This document shows positions 14,548 through 24,639 of a stretch of DNA of 56,569 nt, piece by piece (within the stretch, counting starts at the first letter, position 1; every line of letters begins with the position of its first letter). Source of the DNA: Synechococcus sp. (GTDB lineage: Bacteria; Cyanobacteriota; Cyanobacteriia; PCC-6307; Cyanobiaceae); NCBI GenBank assembly GCA_012270465.1, contig JAAXIH010000103.1, forward strand, positions 1 through 56,569, in the 5' to 3' direction. A program made the position numbers and the translations under genes. Under the pieces are notes generated by a model. It saw only the letters and a list, made by a program, of their open reading frames with translations. It was not told the DNA's origin and ran no database searches.

Positions 14548-15159
14548 ATGGGCCGGCAAGGAAACATCCATCGCGTCACCGGGGAAACCGAGGTCCGCGT
14601 GGCCATCGGCCTCGATGGCAGTGGCCAATGCGAGGTGAGCACCGGTGTGCCCTTCCTCGATCACATGCTCCATCAGCTGGCTAGCCATGGGCTGTTTGAT
14701 CTGACGATCAGCGCCACTGGTGACACCCATATCGACGACCACCACACCAATGAGGATGTGGGCATCGCCTTGGGCCAAGCGCTCGGTCAAGCCCTCGCCG
14801 ATCGCCGCGGCATCCACCGCTTTGGCCACTTTGTGGCGCCCCTCGATGAAGCCCTCGTGCAGGTGGCGCTCGACTGCTCCGGGCGGCCCCACGTGAGTTA
14901 TTCCCTGGCGATCCCAGCGCAAAAAATTGGCAGCTACGACACCGAGCTGGTCAAAGAGTTCTTTGTGGCCGTTGCCAACAACGCCGGGCTGACCCTGCAC
15001 ATCCGCCAGCTCGATGGGGTGAATTCCCACCACATCGTGGAGGCCTGCTTCAAGGCCTTCGCCCGCGCCCTGCGCATGGCCACCGAAATCGATCCGCGCC
15101 GGGCCAGCGCGATCCCCAGCAGCAAAGGAGTGCTTGAGCAGGCCGGCACCACAGGTTGA
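14548..15159 (+). CDS. hisB: Imidazoleglycerol-phosphate dehydratase
   Basis: DDHHTNED and [11 protein letters not shown] motifs. Confidence 0.97.
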
Positions 15160-15162
15160 GGC

Positions 15163-15483
15163 GTGCGCTGGTTCATCAAGCGTGAAACCTTTCGGCGGCC
15201 AGCCGCTGAGCTGAAGCAGGCGATCGCAGCCCATCGCCAGTGGGTGGCCAGCTGCCGCGAGCAGGGCGTGGTGATCAGCAGCGGCTTTTTGGTCGATGGC
15301 GAAGGGAAGCCCGGCGGTGGGGGCTTGCTGCTGCTGCAAGCCAGCGACTACGCCGCCGCCCTGGCCTTGATCCAGCAGGACCCGATGCTGCTCAGCGGCG
15401 GGGTGGAGTGGGAGCTGCAGGAATGGATCAGCAGCGTGGGGGACTTGGCCACCGACGCACCTTCACAGTCCTTCACGAGATGA
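15163..15483 (+). CDS. YciI family protein
   Basis: H..W, GGGGLLL and DPM motifs; 106 aa. Confidence 0.75.
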   Translation: MRWFIKRETFRRPAAELKQAIAAHRQWVASCREQGVVISSGFLVDGEGKPGGGGLLLLQASDYAAALALIQQDPMLLSGGVEWELQEWISSVGDLATDAPSQSFTR

Positions 15484-15505
15484 TGGGGGCCACCGCCGGC
15501 CTCCC

Positions 15506-16966
15506 ATGACCGCTGCCCCTGCAGCACCGAGCTACACCCGCAGCGACTGGTCCAGCGCATTTCGCAATGTGGGGCAGGAGCTCAGCGATGTGGTGCTGGA
15601 GCCCTCGCGCGGCCAGATCCCCGATGAGCTGGCTGGGGTGCTCTACCGCAATGGCCCTGGCCGCCTGGAGCGCGGCGGCCAATGGCTGCATCACCCCTTT
15701 GATGGCGACGGCATGATCACCGCGCTGCAACTGGCCGGTGGCCAGCTGCAGCTCAGCAATCGCTTTGTGCGCACCGAGGGCTGGCTAGCTGAAGAAGCCG
15801 CCGGCAAGGTGCTCTACCGCGGCGTGTTTGGCAGCCAAAAGCCCGGCGGGGTGATGGCCAATGCGTTTGATCTGCGCCTGAAAAACATCGCCAACACCGG
15901 TGTGGTGCGCCTGGGCGATGACCTGTTGGCCCTCTGGGAAGCCGCCGAACCCCATGCCCTTGATCCAGACAGCCTCGAGACCCGCGGCCTAAGCCGGCTC
16001 AACGGGGTGCTGAAACCCGGTGAAGCCTTCAGTGCCCACCCCCGTTTTGATCCCGGCCACCACGGCGACCCGCGCATGGTGACCTTTGGGGTCAAAACCG
16101 GGCCGCGCAGCACGGTGCGGCTGATGGAATTCGCCGCCGACGGCAGCCTGCTGCATGACCGCCGCGACAGCTTCAACGGCTTTGCCTTTTTGCATGACTT
16201 CGCCATCACGCCCAACTGGGCGGTGTTCTGGCAAAACGCGATCAACTTCAACCCGCTGCCCTTTGTCCTGGGGCAAAAGGGTGCCGCCCAGTGCCTGGAA
16301 TCCAACCCCAAAGGGCAGGCCAAGTTCTGGTTGATCCCCCGCGATAGCGGTGCCTTCGCGGGCCAAAGCGCCAAGGTGATCGACGCACCGGAGGGCTTTG
16401 TCTTCCATCACCTCAACGCCTGGGAAGAGGGCGATGCGGTGGTGCTCGAGAGCATCGTCTACGACGATTTCCCCTCGATTGGCCCGGGCGTCGACTTCCG
16501 CGAGGTCGACTTTGAGCAGATCCCCGAAGGCCTGCTGGAGCGTTGCCGCATCGACACCAAAACAGCAACAGCCCAGCGGGAACGGCTCAGCGAGCGCTGC
16601 TGCGAATTTGCGATGGTGAATCCCAACCGGGTGGGCCTCAAGGCCCGCTACAGCTGGATGGCGGTAGCCGAGCGGGAGCAGGGCAATGATCCGCTGCAAG
16701 CCATTCGCAAGCTGGATTTGAACAGCGGCGAGAGCCGGGTGTGGAGCGCCGCTCCGCGGGGCTTTGTCAGCGAGCCGGTGATGGTGGCCAAACCTGGCGC
16801 CTCAGCAGAAGACGATGGCTGGGTGCTGTGCCTGGTTTGGAACGGGGCGCGCTGCGCCAGCGATCTGGTGATCCTTGATGCCAGCACCCTGAACGAGCAG
16901 GCCGTCTTTGAGCTGCCCCTGGCGATTCCCCACGGCCTGCACGGCAGCTGGGTGCAGGCCAGCTGA
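15506..16966 (+). CDS. Carotenoid oxygenase (apocarotenoid cleavage dioxygenase family)
   Basis: RNGPG, HPFDGDG, FLHDF, FHHLNA, SEPV and HGLHG (four Fe-ligating His). Confidence 0.92.
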   Translation: MTAAPAAPSYTRSDWSSAFRNVGQELSDVVLEPSRGQIPDELAGVLYRNGPGRLERGGQWLHHPFDGDGMITALQLAGGQLQLSNRFVRTEGWLAEEAAGKVLYRGVFGSQKPGGVMANAFDLRLKNIANTGVVRLGDDLLALWEAAEPHALDPDSLETRGLSRLNGVLKPGEAFSAHPRFDPGHHGDPRMVTFGVKTGPRSTVRLMEFAADGSLLHDRRDSFNGFAFLHDFAITPNWAVFWQNAINFNPLPFVLGQKGAAQCLESNPKGQAKFWLIPRDSGAFAGQSAKVIDAPEGFVFHHLNAWEEGDAVVLESIVYDDFPSIGPGVDFREVDFEQIPEGLLERCRIDTKTATAQRERLSERCCEFAMVNPNRVGLKARYSWMAVAEREQGNDPLQAIRKLDLNSGESRVWSAAPRGFVSEPVMVAKPGASAEDDGWVLCLVWNGARCASDLVILDASTLNEQAVFELPLAIPHGLHGSWVQAS

Positions 16967-18508
16967 TCAGCCCTGCTGCCGCTGCCATTCGCGCCAGGCC
17001 AAGCGCGGGGCAGTCCACAGCGTGGTGAGCACCAGCGGGGTTACAGGAACCGCCGCAATCACGATGAAGGCCTGCAGCGCATTGATGCTGGTGCTGTCGC
17101 CCAGGCTGGTGCCAATGCGCAGCAACACCAAGGTGAGGCTGCCGATCATCAGCGCCCAGAACAAGCGCAACACAGCAGGCGGCTGACTCTGGCCGCTGAC
17201 CACCATCGCGGCGGCATAACTCATCGAATCGGCGCTGGTGGCCATGAACAGCACCACCAGCAGCAGCCCCACCGGAATCAGCAGCCAGGCCAGGGGCAAC
17301 TGGGTGAGGATCGCCAGCAACGCTGCGGCAGCACCGCTCTCAGCCAAGGGACCGGTCACCGAGCCTTGATTGGCCAGCTCCAAATAGAGGCCGCTCCCCC
17401 CCAACAGGGTGAACCAAATGTTGGTGACCAGCGGGCACAAAATCGCCACCGCCAGCACCAGCTCGCGCACACTGCGCCCGCGGCTGACCCCAGCGGTGAA
17501 CAGGCCCATCAGCGGGGCATAGCCCAAAAACCAACCCCAATAGAAAACGGTCCAACCATTGACCCAATTGCCGCTGCCGGCATTGGAGGCCAGCGCCATC
17601 TGGGGCAAACGGCTGAGGTACAGGCCAAAGGAACTGATGAAGTGCTGAGCCAGCCACAACCCAGGTCCGAGCACCAGCAGGGCCGCCCCCAAACCGAGCG
17701 TGAGCCAAACGTTGAGCTCCGAGAGCCATTTGATGCCCTTTTGGATGCCGCTCACCGTTGAGGTGGCAAACACAGCGGTGAGCAGCACCACCACCAGCGA
17801 CTGCAAGCCAGCGCTATCGGCCAAACCAGGCAACTGCCCCGCAGCATTGCTGAGCTGCAGCGACAGGAACCCCAAGGGGCCCACCGTGCCTGCAATGGCG
17901 GCCACCACCGAGAGGCCGTCGCAGAGATGGCCAAGGATCCCGTCGACCCAGCGGCGCGGCACCAAAGGCACCAGCAAACTGCGGGGCCGCAGGGGTTCAC
18001 CGCGGCGCTCCAGCACCGAAAAGGTGATCGTGACCGTGGTGGCCACCAGCGCCCAGGCCAAAAAGCCCCAGTGCAAAAAGCTCACCGCCAAAGCTGGATC
18101 AACGGCGGCTTCGGTGCTGCCGCTCACCCCGTCGAAATAGGGAGCCGGCGACTGGAAATGAAACAGCGGTTCAGCGGCCGACCAAAACACGCCGCCACCT
18201 GCCAGCAGCGTGCAGATCAGCACGGCGCACCAATCGAACAATTTGAGGCTTGGCTTGGCCTCGGCTCCGCCGAGCTTGAGCCGCCCCACCGGGCTGATGG
18301 CCAGAGCCGCTGCAATCAGGAACAGCAGCGCCACCATCCATTGCCAGGTGCTGCCGAGCCAATCGCTGACGATGGCCTTGCCGCCTTCGGTGAAGGCCGT
18401 GGCCACCTTGAGATCCACCGCGGCCATCACCAGAAACACCAGCAGGGGGCCGGCGCCCACCCACAGCGGCGGCTGCTTCAGCCAGTGACGATCAGATTCG
18501 GACGGCAT
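16967..18508 (-). CDS. BCCT family transporter (betaine/carnitine/choline type)
   Basis: AEP..H, HWGFLAWA, WTVFYWGWF..SRGRSVRE and TSADS motifs; multiple TM helices. Confidence 0.92.
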   Translation of the reverse strand: MPSESDRHWLKQPPLWVGAGPLLVFLVMAAVDLKVATAFTEGGKAIVSDWLGSTWQWMVALLFLIAAALAISPVGRLKLGGAEAKPSLKLFDWCAVLICTLLAGGGVFWSAAEPLFHFQSPAPYFDGVSGSTEAAVDPALAVSFLHWGFLAWALVATTVTITFSVLERRGEPLRPRSLLVPLVPRRWVDGILGHLCDGLSVVAAIAGTVGPLGFLSLQLSNAAGQLPGLADSAGLQSLVVVLLTAVFATSTVSGIQKGIKWLSELNVWLTLGLGAALLVLGPGLWLAQHFISSFGLYLSRLPQMALASNAGSGNWVNGWTVFYWGWFLGYAPLMGLFTAGVSRGRSVRELVLAVAILCPLVTNIWFTLLGGSGLYLELANQGSVTGPLAESGAAAALLAILTQLPLAWLLIPVGLLLVVLFMATSADSMSYAAAMVVSGQSQPPAVLRLFWALMIGSLTLVLLRIGTSLGDSTSINALQAFIVIAAVPVTPLVLTTLWTAPRLAWREWQRQQG

Positions 18509-19679
18509 CACGCTCTCGGCTCCAGCAGGACAGATCAACGGTGGGGACTAGGCCCATGGCCAGACGGGCCAGGGAGGTGCCAATCAGGGGAGCGAACTTG
18601 AACGCCTGACCGGATCCGCCACTGAACAAACTCAGCCGCGGCCCCAAACGATCAAGGACGAAGTTCACATCCGACGCCATCGAATAGGGGCTGATGACCG
18701 TTTCAACGCGCTCCTGCACACCGCTGAGGTTGTTGAACAGGAAGTCGTCGAGCAGCTGCACCAACCGCTCCGGCGGGTCCTTGCGCATGGCATTGGGTTC
18801 GGCGACCCGCAGCTCTTCGGGGGCCCAATCGATGCCGGCCTTGATCTTGGGGCGGCCGTCCTCAGTGCGGCTCAATGCTGGGAAGCCGTAATACAGGCCT
18901 CCGTCATCCCCTTGGGCCTGCTGGAAGCAGAACCACTGGGGATAGCGATCGGCCAGGGCAGGATCCACGGTGTAGTGGGCCCACAACATGGGCCACACCT
19001 CCAGCTTGGGAGCCAAGCCATGGGGAGCGAGCAGCAGCTGGCTCCAAATGCCGCAGGCCACCACCACCTGATCAGCCTCGATCTGCTCACCGCTCTGCAG
19101 GCTGACCCGCCCTGAGCTGGGATCCACCGCTTGAACGGGGCAGTGCTCAATCAGCTGGTGTCCAGCGGCGCGCGCTGTGCGCGTCCAGTGGGCAATCACC
19201 CGATCACTGCGAACGGCCCCGGCCGTGGGCTCAAACAAACCGCTGAAATCAGCCCTGGGCTTGAGCGGGAAGCGCTCCGCAATCTGCTGAGAGGTGAGGG
19301 CTTCATAGGGAATGCCCTGGTCATCCATCACCCGGCGAGCACCCGGAATGGAGCCCTCAATCGTCTCCTCATCCCAGCTTTCGCCGTAGAAAAGCAGGCC
19401 ATGGGTTTGGCGCAGGATCTCACCTGAGCGCTGCTCCTCCTCGCGCCAAAGGCGATTGGCCTCTTGGGCGAGCCGGCAGAGCACCGGATCGGAATACATC
19501 TCCCGGAACATGCGGGATTCGCCGTAGCTGCTGGCCCCGGCGTGAGCCAGGGTTTTGGCCTCCAGCAGCACCACATCGCTGACACCCTGCTGGGCCAGCG
19601 ATGAGGCGCAGCTCAGGCCAGCCATGCCGCCGCCAACGATCACCACCGCAGCGCGGCTGGGAAGGGATTGGGTGCTCAT
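18492..19679 (-). CDS. FAD-dependent oxidoreductase, monomeric sarcosine/pipecolate oxidase-like
   Basis: GGGMAG Rossmann motif, SSYGESRMFREMY, YYGFP and SGQAFKFAP. Confidence 0.85.
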   Translation of the reverse strand: MSTQSLPSRAAVVIVGGGMAGLSCASSLAQQGVSDVVLLEAKTLAHAGASSYGESRMFREMYSDPVLCRLAQEANRLWREEEQRSGEILRQTHGLLFYGESWDEETIEGSIPGARRVMDDQGIPYEALTSQQIAERFPLKPRADFSGLFEPTAGAVRSDRVIAHWTRTARAAGHQLIEHCPVQAVDPSSGRVSLQSGEQIEADQVVVACGIWSQLLLAPHGLAPKLEVWPMLWAHYTVDPALADRYPQWFCFQQAQGDDGGLYYGFPALSRTEDGRPKIKAGIDWAPEELRVAEPNAMRKDPPERLVQLLDDFLFNNLSGVQERVETVISPYSMASDVNFVLDRLGPRLSLFSGGSGQAFKFAPLIGTSLARLAMGLVPTVDLSCWSRERDAVRI

Positions 19680-20731
19680 GTGGGCAACACAAAACTGAGG
19701 CCAATGGGGTCCTGGCTACGACCAGCAGCCACATGCATCAGAGCCTCACCAACGCTGAGGCCGCGATCCCGTTGGGCCAGGAAATCGCTGGCGCGCTGGC
19801 GAACGGCCTGACGCACAAAGCCGTACACCTGCTCCGGGCTGGCCTGTTTCCAGGCCTCTGGAGCAAAGCGCTCGATCGAATCAGCAATCACCGCTCCGGC
19901 ATTGACCAAGGGATCGGGCAACACCCGCACGCCCCGCTGCCGCATCTGATCAGCCAGGGCCGGGTCGGCAAAGGGGGCATTGGCGGCGGGAACCACCGAC
20001 TTCACCTGCAGGGCAGCACTGATCTCAGCGCTGAGCAGACCAGAAATCGAGCAAGGCAGCAGCAAGTCGAGCTCCTCGGTCCACCACGGCGACGCTGGAT
20101 CCAAGGGCGTCGCCCCCTTGATCTGGGCCCGAGCCGGGTCCATGTCCACCGTGAAGACCTGCCAGCCGCTAGCGATGAGGGCCTGGGCCACCGGTCCGCC
20201 CACGGCGCCGCAACCATGCACCAAGGCCCGACCCGCGGGCGCCTGATCCAAGCTGGCCTGCAGCACGGCTTCCACCGCGCCGATCGTGCCGAACGCCGTG
20301 GCGCTGCTGGCATCCACCGGGCTGCCCACAGCAGCCAACACATGGGGCGTCAGAGCGGTCAGCCGCTCCATGTCCTCAAGGCTGGTGTTGAGATCGCAGC
20401 CGGTGATCATGGCCCCGCCGAGCGACTCGAGCAGCTCAGCGGTGACATTGATCAGCTCATCTTTCACCGCTGCGGGATTGGCAGCGCGAGCCACCACCTT
20501 GCCGCCGGCAAAACCGGTGCCATACAAGGAATGCTTGTTGGTCATCAAGCTGGCCAGGCGGTGGCCATCGGCTTTGCAGGTGGCGTCGCTGTCGTAGGAG
20601 AGCAGCCGCAGCCCGCCATTGGCCGGCCGCTCAGCATCGGTGTTCTCGGCCACCACGAAAACCGAGAGGTGATCAGAGATGTGCTCCGCCAGCACGCGCA
20701 CCTGTGGACTGCTGGAATCGGCACTCCTCAT
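19676..20731 (-). CDS. Glu/Leu/Phe/Val dehydrogenase family protein (LeuDH-like)
   Basis: GGLR, MTNK..GGK, GCGAVG, AANAP and PDPLVNAGAVI; start placed at ATG 20731. Confidence 0.85.
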   Translation of the reverse strand: MRSADSSSPQVRVLAEHISDHLSVFVVAENTDAERPANGGLRLLSYDSDATCKADGHRLASLMTNKHSLYGTGFAGGKVVARAANPAAVKDELINVTAELLESLGGAMITGCDLNTSLEDMERLTALTPHVLAAVGSPVDASSATAFGTIGAVEAVLQASLDQAPAGRALVHGCGAVGGPVAQALIASGWQVFTVDMDPARAQIKGATPLDPASPWWTEELDLLLPCSISGLLSAEISAALQVKSVVPAANAPFADPALADQMRQRGVRVLPDPLVNAGAVIADSIERFAPEAWKQASPEQVYGFVRQAVRQRASDFLAQRDRGLSVGEALMHVAAGRSQDPIGLSFVLPT

Positions 20732-21768
20732 GCGGCCACCTTGCCCATCATTTGGTGGTGCTCGACGTAGTCGAGGCTCCATTCATCGGGAGCTGCAGCA
20801 ATGCGCTGTTCCAGACGGGCATACAGCTCATCGGCGGCGGCATCGCCAGCGGTTGAGGCAAAGCTGTGGCGACTCCAGCTGCGGATGGTGGCCATCAAGC
20901 CAGCGGCGAAGGCAGCCGTATCACCGTTCTCCTTCCAGCGGCGGCGGTAGGGGCACTCCACATACACCGTGCGCTGATCAATCAGGCGCAGGCCGTTGCG
21001 GTAGGCCGCTGAAGTGGTGTCCTTCAGCGGTGCCATGAACTCATCGGGTGACTTGTAGAAGTTCATCACCGTGGCCGCGCGGTAGTGATCGGCGCTGATG
21101 CGACCTTCATCGGCCATCTCTCGCCAGATCTGGTGCAGCTGATCGTGCACATTGCGGGTGCGGCCGCCGTTATGTCCCAAGTAGAGACCGGCCTCATCGC
21201 GGGAGAGGTTCACCGTCAACAAACGGCCTCCCACCTGCAGTTCCCTAGAGCGCAGCTCCAGCAGGGCATTCCAGTCGCGCATGGCCTGCGCGGTGAAACG
21301 GCCCAGGGCCTCAGCATCACCGGAGGCCTGAACGTGGGTGTGGCCATCGAGGGCACCCGCCGACTGACTGAGCCAGTGCATGGCGGTGGCGGTAAAGCCA
21401 AAGCTGACCGACCCCGGCGCCATCACCTGCTCGTAGAAGCTGCGGCAGCTCACCAGCACCGTTGGGCTGGGAGGGCGCGACAACTGCAGCGCCACATTGG
21501 CGGCCAAGGCCACGTTGTCGTTGCTGGGCAGGTCATTGCCCACCAGCGTGTAGTGGGCCTGGGGCTGGCGCTCGTGGAGGCGATCCAACACGGAGTTCCA
21601 CAGCCCAACGGCTGTGCCGCCATCGGCAGCCCCGTAGTCGATCAGGGTGTATGCGCTCTGCTGTGGCAGAGCGTCAACGCAAGCTAAGGCCCAGTCCGAA
21701 GCGGCTTCGATGCAGCGCAATGCGCCTTCGGTCTGCGCGCTGTAACCCGTCGTCATGGCGATGGCCAT
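20728..21768 (-). CDS. SAM-dependent methyltransferase, SABATH (carboxyl/N-methyltransferase)-like
   Basis: DYGAADG, NDLPSND, SFYEQV and AMHWLS match SABATH consensus motifs DLGCxxG, NDLPxNDF, GSFY and LHWLS. Confidence 0.85.
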   Translation of the reverse strand: MAIAMTTGYSAQTEGALRCIEAASDWALACVDALPQQSAYTLIDYGAADGGTAVGLWNSVLDRLHERQPQAHYTLVGNDLPSNDNVALAANVALQLSRPPSPTVLVSCRSFYEQVMAPGSVSFGFTATAMHWLSQSAGALDGHTHVQASGDAEALGRFTAQAMRDWNALLELRSRELQVGGRLLTVNLSRDEAGLYLGHNGGRTRNVHDQLHQIWREMADEGRISADHYRAATVMNFYKSPDEFMAPLKDTTSAAYRNGLRLIDQRTVYVECPYRRRWKENGDTAAFAAGLMATIRSWSRHSFASTAGDAAADELYARLEQRIAAAPDEWSLDYVEHHQMMGKVAA

Positions 21769-21845
21769 GATGTCGTCAGCGGCAATGGCCAACCTAAAGA
21801 TTGGCCCTCAATCCCGCCGCCGACTGTCTTGTTTTGTGATCAGCG

Positions 21846-22448
21846 CTACTGATCGTTGAGGAGTTTGCCCAACTCGGGCTCGAGCAGGGCAAAGGCGCGG
21901 CCGCGATGGCCCACAGCTCGCTTCTGCTCAGGCGCCATTTCAGCAAAGGTCAACGCGGTGCCCTCAACCTCAAAAATCGGGTCGTAACCAAAGCCTGAAT
22001 CACCCCGAGGCTCGCTGGTGATCACACCAGCGCAGCAGCCCTCAACTTCAAGCAGCACCTGCCCCGATGCATCCGCCAGGCAAAGCGCAGCGCGAAATTC
22101 AGCGCGCCGATCGTCCTGGCCGCCCAGCTCGCTCAAGAGCCGCGCAATCCGTTCTGGATCAGTCGCGGCATAGCGGGCGGAATGCACCCCTGGAGCCCCC
22201 CCGAGAGCCATCACGCTGAGGCCGGAATCATCCGCCAACGCCCACGCCCCGCTCGCCTTGGCGACTGCCAGCGCTTTGAGCCGGGCATTCTCAGCAAAGG
22301 TGAGTCCTGTTTCCTCCACCTCCATGCCCTCGGGCTGGGGCTGCAGCTCCAATGGCAGCTGTTGCAGGAGCTCCCGAAACTCACGCACCTTGCCGGCATT
22401 GCCGCTGGCAATCACCAGGGTCCGTTTGAGGCCATGAGGAATGCTCAT
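21846..22448 (-). CDS. rdgB: Non-canonical purine NTP pyrophosphatase (Ham1/RdgB)
   Basis: ASGNAGK, ADDSGL, FGYDPIF and HRGRA motifs. Confidence 0.93.
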   Translation of the reverse strand: MSIPHGLKRTLVIASGNAGKVREFRELLQQLPLELQPQPEGMEVEETGLTFAENARLKALAVAKASGAWALADDSGLSVMALGGAPGVHSARYAATDPERIARLLSELGGQDDRRAEFRAALCLADASGQVLLEVEGCCAGVITSEPRGDSGFGYDPIFEVEGTALTFAEMAPEQKRAVGHRGRAFALLEPELGKLLNDQ

Positions 22449-23896
22449 GCGGCTTCGGCCAACTCGCGGGCCCAGGCCAACACTTCGGCCACACGCCCGG
22501 CATTGGGCGCTTCGCAGTAGAGGCGCAGCAGCGGTTCGGTACCTGAAAAACGCAGCATCAGCCAATGGCTGGGGCCCAAGCGCAGCTTGACGCCATCGGT
22601 GCGAATCACCTCCTGCACCGGCATGCCAGCAACGCTGTCAGGCGGCGCGTCGGCCAACTGCTGCTCGAGGCGCTGGCGGCTGTCCATGCCGGCCAAGCGC
22701 AAATCCAAGCGGTCGTAATGACTGCCGCCGCCGCAACGCTCCTGCAAAGCCTCAAGGCGGGCACCCAAGGGCTGGCCGCCTTCCACCAAGGCCTCCAGCA
22801 GCAGCAGCGCAGCGAAAGCGGCATCGCGCTCGGGCAAGTGCATGCCAAAGCCCACACCCCCTGATTCCTCACCACCCACCAGCACCTGGCCGCTGAGCAT
22901 TTCGCTGGCGATGTACTTAAAGCCAACGGGCTTTTCGACCACCTCACGGCCCAGGTCTTCGGCAACGCGCCGCATCAAATCCGAACCGCTCACGGTCTTG
23001 ATCACCTTGCCGGGCAGATTCCTGGCCCGGGCCAGATGGTCGATGAGCAGCGGCATCAACAGCTGCGTACTGCAGTAGCGCCCCTGCTCATCAATGGCCG
23101 CAATGCGATCACCATCGCCGTCAAAAACAATGCCCACCGCGGGCTGACCAGCGGCTGTGCTGGCTTTGACCTGGGCAATCAACTCCCCGAGGTAGGGGGC
23201 CAGCGGCTCGGGTGGATGGCCACCAAACAGGGGATCGCGCTGCGAGCGGATTTCACTCACCGCCTCCCCCAACAGCGCCGGCAGACCACCAGCGGCCGAG
23301 CCATGCATGGGATCAACGATCACCTTGAGGCCCAAGCTCTGCAGCCCATGGCGCAGCGCGTTGGTGTCCATGGCGCCGCGCAGGCCCTGGAGGTATTCCG
23401 CCCAACCGTCAAAGCATTCGGTTTCTCCTGGCTGCGGCACCGTGATGCCGCCGGCCTGCAGGCGCCGCTCAACGCGCTTGGTGAAATCACCTTCCACCGA
23501 GCCGCCGAAGTGGCCCTTGATCTTGAGGCCAAGCCATTCGGGAGGGTTGTGGCTGGCGGTGATCACCAGCGCGCCCAGGGCACGGCGCTCCACCACCACC
23601 CAACTGCAGGCGGGCGTGGGCAAGGGTTCTTGCGCCAGCAGCGGCTCCAACCCCACCCCGCGCACAGCAGCAGCGATGGCGGCTGCCAATTCCGGGGCCA
23701 GAAAGCGGCGGTCGTAGCCGATCACCACCGTGCGGCTCTCGAGCTCTGGCGGTGCGGAATGGGCGAGCTCCGCGGCCGCAGCCGCCGCTACCGGCAACAG
23801 GCGCTCGATGGTGATGTCCACCCCGAGAACACCACGCCAGCCATCGGTGCCAAAGGCGATGGCTGCAGGCTCCAGGTGCAGGGGTGCGGAAGACAT
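22445..23896 (-). CDS. Phosphoglucomutase/phosphomannomutase family protein
   Basis: FGTDGWRG, TASHNP, FDGDGDR and GGEESGG motifs. Confidence 0.93.
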   Translation of the reverse strand: MSSAPLHLEPAAIAFGTDGWRGVLGVDITIERLLPVAAAAAAELAHSAPPELESRTVVIGYDRRFLAPELAAAIAAAVRGVGLEPLLAQEPLPTPACSWVVVERRALGALVITASHNPPEWLGLKIKGHFGGSVEGDFTKRVERRLQAGGITVPQPGETECFDGWAEYLQGLRGAMDTNALRHGLQSLGLKVIVDPMHGSAAGGLPALLGEAVSEIRSQRDPLFGGHPPEPLAPYLGELIAQVKASTAAGQPAVGIVFDGDGDRIAAIDEQGRYCSTQLLMPLLIDHLARARNLPGKVIKTVSGSDLMRRVAEDLGREVVEKPVGFKYIASEMLSGQVLVGGEESGGVGFGMHLPERDAAFAALLLLEALVEGGQPLGARLEALQERCGGGSHYDRLDLRLAGMDSRQRLEQQLADAPPDSVAGMPVQEVIRTDGVKLRLGPSHWLMLRFSGTEPLLRLYCEAPNAGRVAEVLAWARELAEAA

Positions 23897-24639
23897 CAGT
23901 CAGCGCTGAGTTGATAGCAGTGTCCTGGATCGGGATCAATGAAGCGGGTGTGCGGGTGCCGGCCGGCCAGCTGCGCTTGCTCTTCATCGCTGTTGGCCTG
24001 GGCCTGCAGCACCTGCTGCAGCAATCCGCTGTAAGCCACATCGCCGCCGGCCGTGCTGGCCAGCAGGTGAGCCGGTGTAAACCGCTCCAACAGCTGCGGC
24101 ACCACGGATCGACCCTTCACAAACGCCCCTGCCACAGGCAGGCCTAAATCCATCACCGGTGTGATCACCGCGGTGAGCGCTTCAGCGGGCACAGCCGGAT
24201 CCAAGAAGCCATGGGGCTCCACATACAGGCTTTCCCCTGAGCCGCGCAGCAGATACCCGTTTTCCACCTGGGGCACCGGTGCACCAGCGGTGGCTTGGAT
24301 CTCGAGCAAACCGCGCTGCAGGCGTTCACCAGGTCGCAGGGTGTCGGTTTGGGTGAAGCCGAACCGGCGCGCTTGTTGCACCGCCGCCGCGGAGCCAATC
24401 ACCGGCAGCTCCTTGGGCAAGCGCTCCAAGGTGGCGGGATGGGCATGATCCGGCAGGCCCTGAGTCAACAACACGCCATCGAGATCGCCGGGGATCGGCC
24501 ACTCGCGGGGCAGCGTGCCTTCAAACAACCAACCCGCTCCACCGAAGCGCAGGGGACCCACCAACCAGGGATCCAGCAACAGGCGCTGACCAGCGAGCTC
24601 CAGCAACCAGCCATTGGCGCCGAAATAGGTGAGCTGCAT
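23896..24639 (-). CDS. Metallo-beta-lactamase fold hydrolase
   Basis: LLDPWLVG and LTQGLPDHAH (degenerate HxHxDH) motifs. Confidence 0.8.
   Translation of the reverse strand: MQLTYFGANGWLLELAGQRLLLDPWLVGPLRFGGAGWLFEGTLPREWPIPGDLDGVLLTQGLPDHAHPATLERLPKELPVIGSAAAVQQARRFGFTQTDTLRPGERLQRGLLEIQATAGAPVPQVENGYLLRGSGESLYVEPHGFLDPAVPAEALTAVITPVMDLGLPVAGAFVKGRSVVPQLLERFTPAHLLASTAGGDVAYSGLLQQVLQAQANSDEEQAQLAGRHPHTRFIDPDPGHCYQLSAD

What the first reader, a model, noticed from the sequence alone, without database searches (positions are those of the whole stretch)
16967..21768. Four-gene operon: SABATH-like methyltransferase, amino-acid dehydrogenase, sarcosine-oxidase-like flavoprotein and BCCT transporter (candidate unknown methylated-osmolyte pathway)
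Seen: four minus-strand genes with overlapping junctions (ATGA at 20728-20731 and 19676-19679, 17 nt at 18492-18508), sitting between the carotenoid oxygenase gene and rdgB. Known: SABATH enzymes are mainly plant carboxyl- or N-methyltransferases; LeuDH-family enzymes interconvert amino and keto acids; MSOX/PIPOX enzymes oxidise N-methyl or cyclic imino acids; BCCT carriers move betaines and sulfonium compounds. Inference: this is a self-contained module to make or scavenge a methylated zwitterion (a betaine, an N-methyl amino acid or a DMSP-like compound). It matches no pathway I know, and having a methylase beside an apparent demethylase is odd. The genes may already be catalogued, but I know of no assigned function.
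Basis: partly seen in the sequence, partly recalled or inferred. Interest (0 to 1): 0.85.

Follow-up and report, generated by a model that had tools for sequence, protein, structure and literature searches.

The report
Candidate homarine biosynthesis operon
Four tightly packed genes in a marine Synechococcus likely turn lysine into homarine, a common ocean osmolyte whose synthesis genes were not found in the papers searched, and the same three enzymes occur as fused proteins in diatoms and other algae.

Summary
The four genes and three overlaps are exactly as described. The three enzymes travel together: in 401 family genomes, 67 have all three and 330 none. They recur in Prochlorococcus, Myxococcota and filamentous marine cyanobacteria, and as DH-oxidase-MT fusions in algae; the BCCT is optional. 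The flavoprotein is not a demethylase by default: its closest solved structure is NikD, which aromatises piperideine-2-carboxylate to picolinate. The dehydrogenase keeps the catalytic lysines but has Asn/Asp where leucine dehydrogenase has Leu/Val, a pocket suited to a basic side chain. The SABATH enzyme lacks the carboxyl-methyltransferase glutamine. Best reading (0.65): lysine -> P2C -> picolinate -> homarine. Both Synechococcus strains known to make homarine carry the MT gene. Against: no activity tested, NikD's Cys321 and Trp355 are missing, a diatom oxidase domain is closer to MSOX, and some algae use another oxidase. The cluster is catalogued (Dore 2023) but read as ammonium release from leucine. 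This scan proposed homarine before on three other genomes; I reached it independently first.

The parts
20728..21768 (-). SABATH-fold SAM-dependent methyltransferase, 346 aa; predicted picolinate N-methyltransferase (last step)
   Evidence: PF03492 E 2e-20; model pLDDT 95, TM 0.86 to mycobacterial fatty-acid O-MT and 0.76-0.85 to plant SABATH O- and N-MTs; SAMT Gln25 position is Ala16 in 63 of 63 bacterial orthologs, Cys in 17 of 17 fused domains
19676..20731 (-). Glu/Leu/Phe/Val-family amino-acid dehydrogenase, 351 aa; predicted lysine 2-dehydrogenase making piperideine-2-carboxylate (first step)
   Evidence: PF00208 and PF02812 above cut-off; K66, K78, D113 kept and pocket N38, G111, D284 in 60 of 60 bacterial orthologs
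18492..19679 (-). MSOX/NikD-superfamily flavoprotein, 395 aa; predicted P2C-to-picolinate oxidase (second step)
   Evidence: Best PDB hit NikD by phmmer (E 6.7e-31), profile (208.6 vs 192.4 bits for MSOX) and VIA (Z 49.4 vs 47.3); R59, E108, Y264, D284, K361 in 57 of 57 orthologs
16967..18508 (-). BCCT-family transporter, 513 aa; predicted to move the product; direction unknown
   Evidence: PF02028 E 2e-129; best PDB hits TmaT and DddT; TM8 box reads W-F-x-x-Y in 39 of 39 orthologs
21846..22445 (-). rdgB, conserved upstream flank (not part of the pathway)
   Evidence: PF01725; upstream in 13 of 15 ortholog regions, absent next to the cluster in Prochlorococcus and Myxococcota loci
15506..16966 (+). 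carotenoid cleavage oxygenase, convergent downstream flank (not part of the pathway)
   Evidence: PF03055; its stop abuts the BCCT stop

Best explanation
The operon likely makes homarine (N-methylpicolinate) from L-lysine in three predicted steps and likely moves it with the BCCT carrier. Step 1 (inferred): the dehydrogenase oxidatively deaminates lysine at C2 with NAD(P)+, releasing ammonium; the keto acid cyclises by itself to piperideine-2-carboxylate (P2C). Step 2 (inferred): the flavoprotein removes four electrons to give picolinate, as NikD does; this pulls the otherwise unfavourable first step. Step 3 (inferred): the SABATH enzyme methylates the ring nitrogen with SAM, as coffee trigonelline synthase does with nicotinate. 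Shown here: the genes, their coupling, co-occurrence, fusions, folds and pocket residues. Not shown: any substrate, product, electron acceptor, transport direction or co-transcription.
For: (1) Coupling: 67 of 401 family genomes have all three enzymes, 330 none, 4 have one (kin are not independent). 60 of the 64 GTDB loci with MT at 40% identity or more hold all three, across Synechococcus, Prochlorococcus, Okeania/Dapis/Scytonema and Myxococcota. (2) Fusions: 31 of 31 long oxidase relatives and 13 of 13 long DH relatives carry a partner domain; of 54 long proteins checked, 34 are DH-OX and 10 DH-OX-MT, the proposed reaction order. (3) NikD is the top solved relative by three methods, and R53/E101/Y258/D276/K358 align with invariant R59/E108/Y264/D284/K361. 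NikC/NikD route: PMC4021061 passages. (4) DH pocket: LeuDH L40/A113/V294 set specificity (PMC2723916) and GluDH uses K92/S380 for the acidic side chain (PMC8784811); here they are N38/G111/D284, with D284 in 60 of 60 bacterial and 46 of 46 fused domains. (5) MT lacks the Gln found in all four solved carboxyl O-MTs whose alignments were shown; SABATH N-methylation of a pyridine carboxylate is known (PMC8877179); one 37% homolog sits between nadA and an nadB-like gene. (6) Producers: WH8102 and WH7803 make homarine and both are listed with the MT gene; diatoms make it and diatoms have the fusion. (7) WH8102 SYNW0230, 0232, 0233 rise under salt shock, log2 0.45, 0.40, 0.47, q=0. (8) An ABC betaine-binding gene replaces BCCT in 2 of 4 filamentous loci scanned.
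Against: No enzyme was assayed. NikD's lead over MSOX is small (Z 49.4 vs 47.3; 30% vs 24% identity; Foldseek ranks interleave), and the Nitzschia oxidase domain scores higher with MSOX (E 4e-31) than NikD (7e-20). The covalent-FAD cysteine is Ser330 and NikD Trp355 is Gln358. A set of fusions including Pavlovales haptophytes uses an oxidase of another subfamily without the NikD-like acids. The D284=V294 match rests on an ungapped alignment anchored on E287; HMMER puts a 2-residue gap there in several LeuDH alignments. A DH-only clade keeps the same pocket with no MT or oxidase nearby (7 of 7 loci). [quoted passage not shown] The WH8102 reference lists the dehydrogenase region as two ORFs; not tested by name. 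The literature route is from quinolinate, in shrimp. Salt induction is weaker than that of the glycine-betaine genes (0.87).
Confidence: 0.65

Rival explanations
1. The product is still homarine but the entry point or order differs: the dehydrogenase oxidises pipecolate to P2C, or methylation precedes aromatisation.
For: An acidic pocket could also bind a ring nitrogen; MSOX-type enzymes prefer N-methyl amines, and the oxidase keeps MSOX-like K280 and Y332. Fusion order varies (MT-DH-OX, DH-MT, MT-DH in 4 of 54).
Against: No ornithine/lysine cyclodeaminase (PF02423) found in the own genome, which is only 82% complete; DH-OX-MT is the commonest triple order (10 vs 1).
Confidence: 0.1
2. The product is another methylated cyclic imino acid: a partly oxidised N-methyl-dehydropipecolate, or an ornithine-derived pyrrole-2-carboxylate derivative.
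For: NikD homologs can stop at a two-electron product (DmgAA7, PMC11446937 passage); the oxidase lacks Cys321 and Trp355; an Asp pocket does not separate lysine from ornithine.
Against: Homarine is the abundant orphan N-methyl heterocycle measured in the strains that carry the genes; no such alternative was seen in the passages read.
Confidence: 0.1
3. [quoted passage not shown]
For: Generic annotations leuDH and soxA; enrichment in iron-poor Prochlorococcus; a BCCT is present.
Against: LeuDH hydrophobic pocket replaced by N38/D284; below cut-offs for soxA_mon, solA and AmaA; no role for a SAM methyltransferase that is fused to the others; BCCT missing in 13 of 13 Prochlorococcus loci (10 with over 4 kb of flank).
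Confidence: 0.06
4. Picolinate is made but O-methylated to the volatile ester methyl picolinate, the usual SABATH chemistry.
For: Closest solved MT is a carboxyl O-methyltransferase; W132 and H131 of the carboxylate site are kept.
Against: Gln25 equivalent is lost in all operon and fused members, while 24 of 44 distant stand-alone relatives keep it; a neutral ester would not need a betaine carrier; salt induction fits an osmolyte.
Confidence: 0.05
5. A sulfonium pathway (S-methylmethionine deamination towards a DMSP-like compound).
For: D284 could bind a sulfonium; DddT is among the best BCCT hits.
Against: An amine-oxidising flavoprotein has no clear step; no decarboxylase or aldehyde dehydrogenase travels with the cluster in the loci scanned.
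Confidence: 0.04

Closest known systems
NikC/NikD (SanL/SanK) branch of nikkomycin biosynthesis, Streptomyces tendae / S. ansochromogenes
   Same: Predicted lysine -> P2C -> picolinate chemistry; the oxidase has the NikD fold and five aligned active-site residues (route from PMC4021061 passages).
   Different: An NAD(P)-type dehydrogenase replaces the PLP aminotransferase; no covalent-FAD cysteine, no Trp355; 30% identity; picolinate would be N-methylated, not CoA-activated; includes a transporter.
Coffee trigonelline synthases CTgS1/2 (SABATH nicotinate N-methyltransferases)
   Same: SABATH fold; precedent for N-methylating a pyridine carboxylate (PMC8877179 passage).
   Different: Not compared by sequence here; solved plant SABATH N-MTs are only 13-18% identical; predicted substrate is the 2-isomer; independent origin likely.
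Pro-eCAG_009 (leuDH-soxA-CK_00001744), Dore et al. 2023, and WH8102 SYNW0229-0233, PMC2874817
   Same: The same gene cluster by annotation, order and strain distribution.
   Different: Those papers read it as ammonium release from branched-chain amino acids or as betaine-transport accessories; neither passage mentions homarine, lysine or picolinate.
homABCDER homarine catabolism operon (PMC13236597)
   Same: Same candidate metabolite; has a betaine-type transporter in Cobetia.
   Different: Degradative, in heterotrophs; flavin/oxygenase pair, peptidase-like and aldehyde dehydrogenase, no methyltransferase or amino-acid dehydrogenase as described in section 6. Sequences not compared.
Leucine dehydrogenase and monomeric sarcosine oxidase
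   Same: Folds and catalytic cores.
   Different: Specificity pocket and covalent-FAD cysteine differ; below curated cut-offs; the oxidases form their own clade apart from three solA-type outgroups (100/100).

Membership tests
Glu/Leu/Phe/Val dehydrogenase superfamily | Both Pfam domains and catalytic Lys68/Lys80/Asp115 equivalents | tested here: met
   PF00208 53.9 > 23.4 bits, PF02812 31.2 > 25.3; K66, K78, D113 in 60 of 60
Leucine dehydrogenase (sensu stricto) | Hydrophobic side-chain pocket L40, A113, V291, V294 | tested here: not met
   N38, G111, V281, D284; the D284 match depends on an ungapped alignment; residues defined in PMC2723916
Lysine 2-dehydrogenase (proposed) | NAD(P)-dependent deamination of lysine at C2 | not testable with these tools
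   Pocket inference only
MSOX/MTOX/PIPOX/NikD family | Fold and carboxylate-binding Arg/Lys | tested here: met
   TM 0.84-0.87, Z 45-49; R59 and K361 in 57 of 57
MSOX/MTOX/PIPOX/NikD family | Cysteine for covalent FAD (MSOX C315, NikD C321; role recalled) | tested here: not met
   Ser330 in 56 of 57, Asn in 1
Monomeric sarcosine oxidase / SolA / AmaA pipecolate oxidase | Curated NCBIfam cut-offs | tested here: not met
   TIGR01377 139 < 480; NF008425 178 < 257; NF050086 36 < 600
NikD (P2C oxidase) | Active-site Glu101, Asp276, Tyr258 (numbering read; roles of the acids recalled) | tested here: met
   E108, D284, Y264 in 57 of 57 bacterial and 36 of 48 fused domains
NikD (P2C oxidase) | Mobile Trp355 (role recalled) | tested here: not met
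   Gln358 in bacteria, Arg in 36 fused domains
NikD (P2C oxidase) | Four-electron oxidation of P2C to picolinate | not testable with these tools
   Needs an assay
SABATH methyltransferases | PF03492 and SABATH fold with helical cap | tested here: met
   73.6 > 29.8 bits; top 17 listed Foldseek rows are SABATH-type, TM 0.76-0.86
SABATH carboxyl O-methyltransferases | Carboxylate-orienting Gln25 plus Trp151 (roles recalled) | tested here: not met
   Trp kept (W132); Gln replaced by Ala or Cys
SABATH pyridine N-methyltransferases (CTgS type) | N-methylation of a pyridine carboxylate | not testable with these tools
   No CTgS sequence or structure compared
BCCT family | PF02028 over the full length | tested here: met
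   432 > 27 bits
Glycine-betaine uptake BCCT (BetP/OpuD) | NCBIfam cut-off and TM8 tryptophan box | tested here: not met
   NF047988 300 < 650; box is W-F-x-x-Y and the TM3 glycine motif is altered in 39 of 39 (motif meaning recalled)
homABCDER catabolic operon | HomA/HomB oxygenase pair, HomC, HomD | not tested
   Only the paper's description was read

The most novel reading that the evidence does not exclude
This is the homarine synthase pathway of the ocean, shared from picocyanobacteria and Myxococcota to diatoms, haptophytes, red and green algae (as operons or as single DH-oxidase-MT polypeptides), using a lysine 2-dehydrogenase of the Glu/Leu/Phe/Val family, a non-covalent-FAD NikD-like aromatase and a bacterial SABATH N-methyltransferase. 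It gives a de novo route to a pyridine ring that bypasses quinolinate, and predicts unrecognised producers such as iron-limited Prochlorococcus.
Probability: 0.55. Interest if true: 0.9.

Novelty: new variant of a known kind. Interest (0 to 1): 0.78.

Why it matters
Homarine has been known for about 90 years, is ubiquitous in surface seawater, acts as a chemical cue for animals, and reaches up to 18 mM in Synechococcus WH8102 (corrected value). Its breakdown genes were published in 2026, but the passages read say no biosynthetic pathway is characterised and seven searches found none. Naming three genes makes the question directly testable with existing strains, gives marker genes to map producers in metagenomes, would re-annotate 'leuDH' and 'soxA' in most marine Synechococcus, and would add a lysine 2-dehydrogenase activity not found in the papers seen.

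Tried and rejected
Viral contigs: no MT relative. Plasmids: only generic solA-type oxidases under 33% identity; the top Streptomyces hit sits in a methylamine-type cluster, not a NikC/D cluster, so no NikD sequence could be placed in the tree. Rfam: 0 matches in 15000-24000. Promoter scan: 0 sigma-70 sites; terminators 5 vs 4.2 expected, i.e. chance. Class-wide DH search: 0 of 274 genomes outside the family in that sample, although one search shows rare filamentous carriers. ESM Atlas: only ELFV labels for the DH; no label for the ORF beside DH-only genes. A split DH in G321 was tested as a possible real break and rejected: 4 of 4 runs lack the extra base at depth 260-817 and are otherwise identical; these are contigs, may be one campaign, and do not show transcription. 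The split oxidase in G122 and split MT in G285/G297 were not tested. Heal Table S3 was an unreadable picture and Dryad tables were out of reach, so the non-producer strain list was not seen. Paper searches without a homarine-synthesis hit. No complex prediction was run, as no binding is claimed. Rejected: recent horizontal insertion in this genome (GC/GC3 ordinary, site conserved); canonical LeuDH plus sarcosine oxidase; identity with the hom catabolic operon.
Full report
Observation. The MT start at 21768 matches homologs that begin MAIAMTTGYS. The closest named relatives are Synechococcus RCC307 and MIT S9452 at 96-97%, so the host is a subcluster 5.3-type marine Synechococcus. GC and GC3 of the four genes (0.64-0.65; 0.76-0.81) match the flanks.

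The three enzymes are one unit. In the same 401 family genomes, the MT was found in 67, the oxidase in 68 and the dehydrogenase in 70; all 67 MT genomes have the other two, and 330 have none. Kin are not independent, so distant lineages count for more. Among the best 80 of 434 GTDB loci, 64 have an MT at 40% identity or more, and 60 of these hold all three enzymes: Synechococcus and five Myxococcota in the order MT-DH-OX-BCCT, 13 Prochlorococcus without BCCT, and six filamentous cyanobacteria as DH-MT facing OX; the other 4 are 3 loci cut by contig ends and one MT alone. The 16 loci under 40% have the MT alone. Of 80 metagenome loci found with the DH, 76 have MT or oxidase beside it and 4 do not. 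All 31 long relatives of the oxidase and all 13 long relatives of the DH are fusions with a partner. Of 54 long proteins, 34 are DH-OX, 10 DH-OX-MT, 3 OX-MT, 4 other orders and 3 MT with unrelated domains. Named carriers include Nitzschia, Chaetoceros, Dunaliella, Chloropicon, Pyramimonas, Tribonema, Porphyridium, Diacronema and Pavlovales. The transporter is optional and is replaced by an ABC betaine-binding gene in 2 of 4 filamentous loci scanned. This pattern fits synthesis of a betaine better than import and breakdown.

The oxidase. NikD is the best solved relative by phmmer (110.9 bits; T. roseum sarcosine oxidase 109.6, MSOX 97.7), by family profile (208.6 vs 192.4) and by structure (VIA Z 49.4, rmsd 2.0, 373 aligned, vs 47.3 for MSOX); Foldseek ranks NikD first but interleaves it with MSOX. 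Reading NikD numbering from the printed alignment, R53, E101, Y258, D276 and K358 align with R59, E108, Y264, D284 and K361, each present in 57 of 57 bacterial orthologs. That E101 and D276 line NikD's site and that MSOX has His at the D276 position is recalled, not read. Differences: the covalent-FAD cysteine is Ser330 and Trp355 is Gln358. The protein is below the cut-offs for sarcosine, N-methyltryptophan and pipecolate oxidases. Nineteen operon and fusion oxidases form one clade (100/100) apart from three solA-type outgroups, while five fusions including the Pavlovales use another subfamily (long branches flagged, no NikD in the tree). The Nitzschia domain scores better with MSOX than NikD. 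So it works most like NikD but is not filed as NikD.

The dehydrogenase. Catalytic K66, K78 and D113 are kept. LeuDH specificity is set by L40, A113, V291 and V294 (PMC2723916, passages), and GluDH binds the acidic side chain with K92 and S380 (PMC8784811, passages). Here the positions read N38, G111, V281 and D284: D284 in 60 of 60 bacterial and 46 of 46 fused domains, N38 in 60 of 60 and 42 of 46 with 4 gaps. The D284 assignment uses the ungapped alignment seen with 7vid and anchored on E287; HMMER opens a two-residue gap in other LeuDH alignments. A larger, acidic pocket is the charge mirror of GluDH and suits lysine (inference). Lysine deaminated at C2 gives P2C, the NikD substrate, in nikkomycin and virginiamycin pathways (PMC4021061 and PMC9854754, passages). 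No cyclodeaminase was found in the 82%-complete own genome.

The methyltransferase. The model (pLDDT 95) has the SABATH fold. In the four carboxyl O-MTs whose alignments were printed, the SAMT Gln25 position is Gln; here it is Ala in 63 of 63 bacterial orthologs and Cys in 17 of 17 fused domains, whereas 24 of 44 distant stand-alone relatives keep Gln. That this Gln orients the carboxylate is recalled. Coffee SABATH enzymes N-methylate nicotinate to trigonelline (PMC8877179, passage); some plant SABATHs O-methylate it instead (PMC8890502, passages). A homolog between nadA and an nadB-like gene points to a pyridine acid as substrate.

The transporter. A full BCCT, below the cut-offs for glycine-betaine and choline carriers, with a changed TM8 aromatic box and TM3 motif in 39 of 39 orthologs (TM8 role from PMC7876524 passages). 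Direction is unknown.

Link to homarine. Heal 2021 (PMC8269262, section 8 and passages) found homarine in WH8102, WH7803, 4 of 6 diatoms and one Emiliania strain and says the biosynthetic pathway is uncharacterised, citing a quinolinate route from shrimp. The correction (PMC10134881, whole text) lowers values to 18 mM and about 0.2 mM. Thalassiosira pseudonana holds it too (PMC12817926, passages; also PMC12324868). The WH8102 cluster is listed as SYNW0229-0233, and the oxidase, DH and MT-position genes rise under salt shock (PMC2874817, passages and supplement rows), less than the glycine-betaine genes. That list has two ORFs in the DH region; I could not test WH8102 by name, but a split of the same kind in G321 is an assembly error. 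Dore 2023 (PMC10119275, passages and supplement rows) catalogues leuDH-soxA-CK_00001744 as Pro-eCAG_009, enriched in iron-poor Prochlorococcus, and reads it as ammonium release from branched-chain amino acids. Its tables list the MT for 95 of 113 Synechococcus columns, including WH7803 and WH8102, and 13 of 118 Prochlorococcus columns (values copied by hand, 'n.a.' taken as not listed). The 2026 catabolism paper (PMC13236597, passages, sections 6 and 13) describes a different gene set and says prasinophytes were not seen to produce homarine, which sits uneasily with the Pyramimonas fusion; the strain tables that would settle this were not readable.

Mechanism and odds. Lysine + NAD(P)+ -> P2C + ammonium; P2C -> picolinate (four electrons, acceptor unknown); picolinate + SAM -> homarine. 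All three steps are inferred. I give 0.65 to this route, 0.10 to homarine by another entry or order, 0.10 to another cyclic imino-acid product, 0.06 to the catabolic reading, 0.05 to the methyl ester and 0.04 to a sulfonium route.

Novelty. The cluster is catalogued; the function is not, in seven searches of an open-access library that lacks most subscription papers. The chemistry has a precedent in NikC/NikD, so I class it as a new variant of a known kind. I noted the homarine reading, before seeing that three earlier notes of this scan say the same for other genomes; those notes are not counted as support. Interest is high because it makes a long-open question testable with strains already in culture.

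Noticed in passing
L096:6865-12968 (Ca. Electrothrix gigas): A 37% MT homolog without DH or oxidase lies between nadA and an nadB-like flavoprotein gene, hinting at a pyridine-carboxylate (quinolinate or nicotinate) methyltransferase in a cable bacterium.
   Followed up: partly
L116:6567-7568, L117, L118, L186-L189: A DH-only clade (58-62% identity) keeps the N38/D284 pocket with no MT or oxidase nearby; in L116 it is followed by an unknown 353-aa ORF and a spermidine-synthase-domain gene.
   Followed up: partly
P0543, P0544, P0301, P0539, P0542: Fusions including Diacronema and Pavlovales pair the same DH with an oxidase of a different subfamily: apparent non-orthologous replacement.
   Followed up: partly
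L121:6360 (G321): One extra base splits the dehydrogenase gene in the assembly; 4 of 4 runs lack it, so it is an assembly error.
   Followed up: yes
L023:5988-5993 (G122); G285 and G297 MT: Oxidase or MT gene in two frames or truncated in otherwise complete genomes; real break or assembly error not tested.
   Followed up: no
L087:2460-3404, L093:299-1357: OpuAC betaine-binding gene directly upstream of DH-MT in Dapis and Okeania, where BCCT is absent.
   Followed up: partly
L044: A contig labelled Salipiger bermudensis carries the Synechococcus-type cluster with rdgB and carotenoid oxygenase flanks at 71-82% identity, probably a binning error.
   Followed up: no
L097:7450-8457: A second MT copy (38%) follows the BCCT in a Myxococcales locus.
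   Followed up: no
P0271, P0304: SABATH-like MT domains fused to other methyltransferase domains (sarcosine/dimethylglycine-like, cyclopropane-synthase-like).
   Followed up: no
window 16966/16967: Stops of the carotenoid oxygenase and the BCCT abut with no gap; many relatives have 0.8-3 kb inserted here.
   Followed up: no
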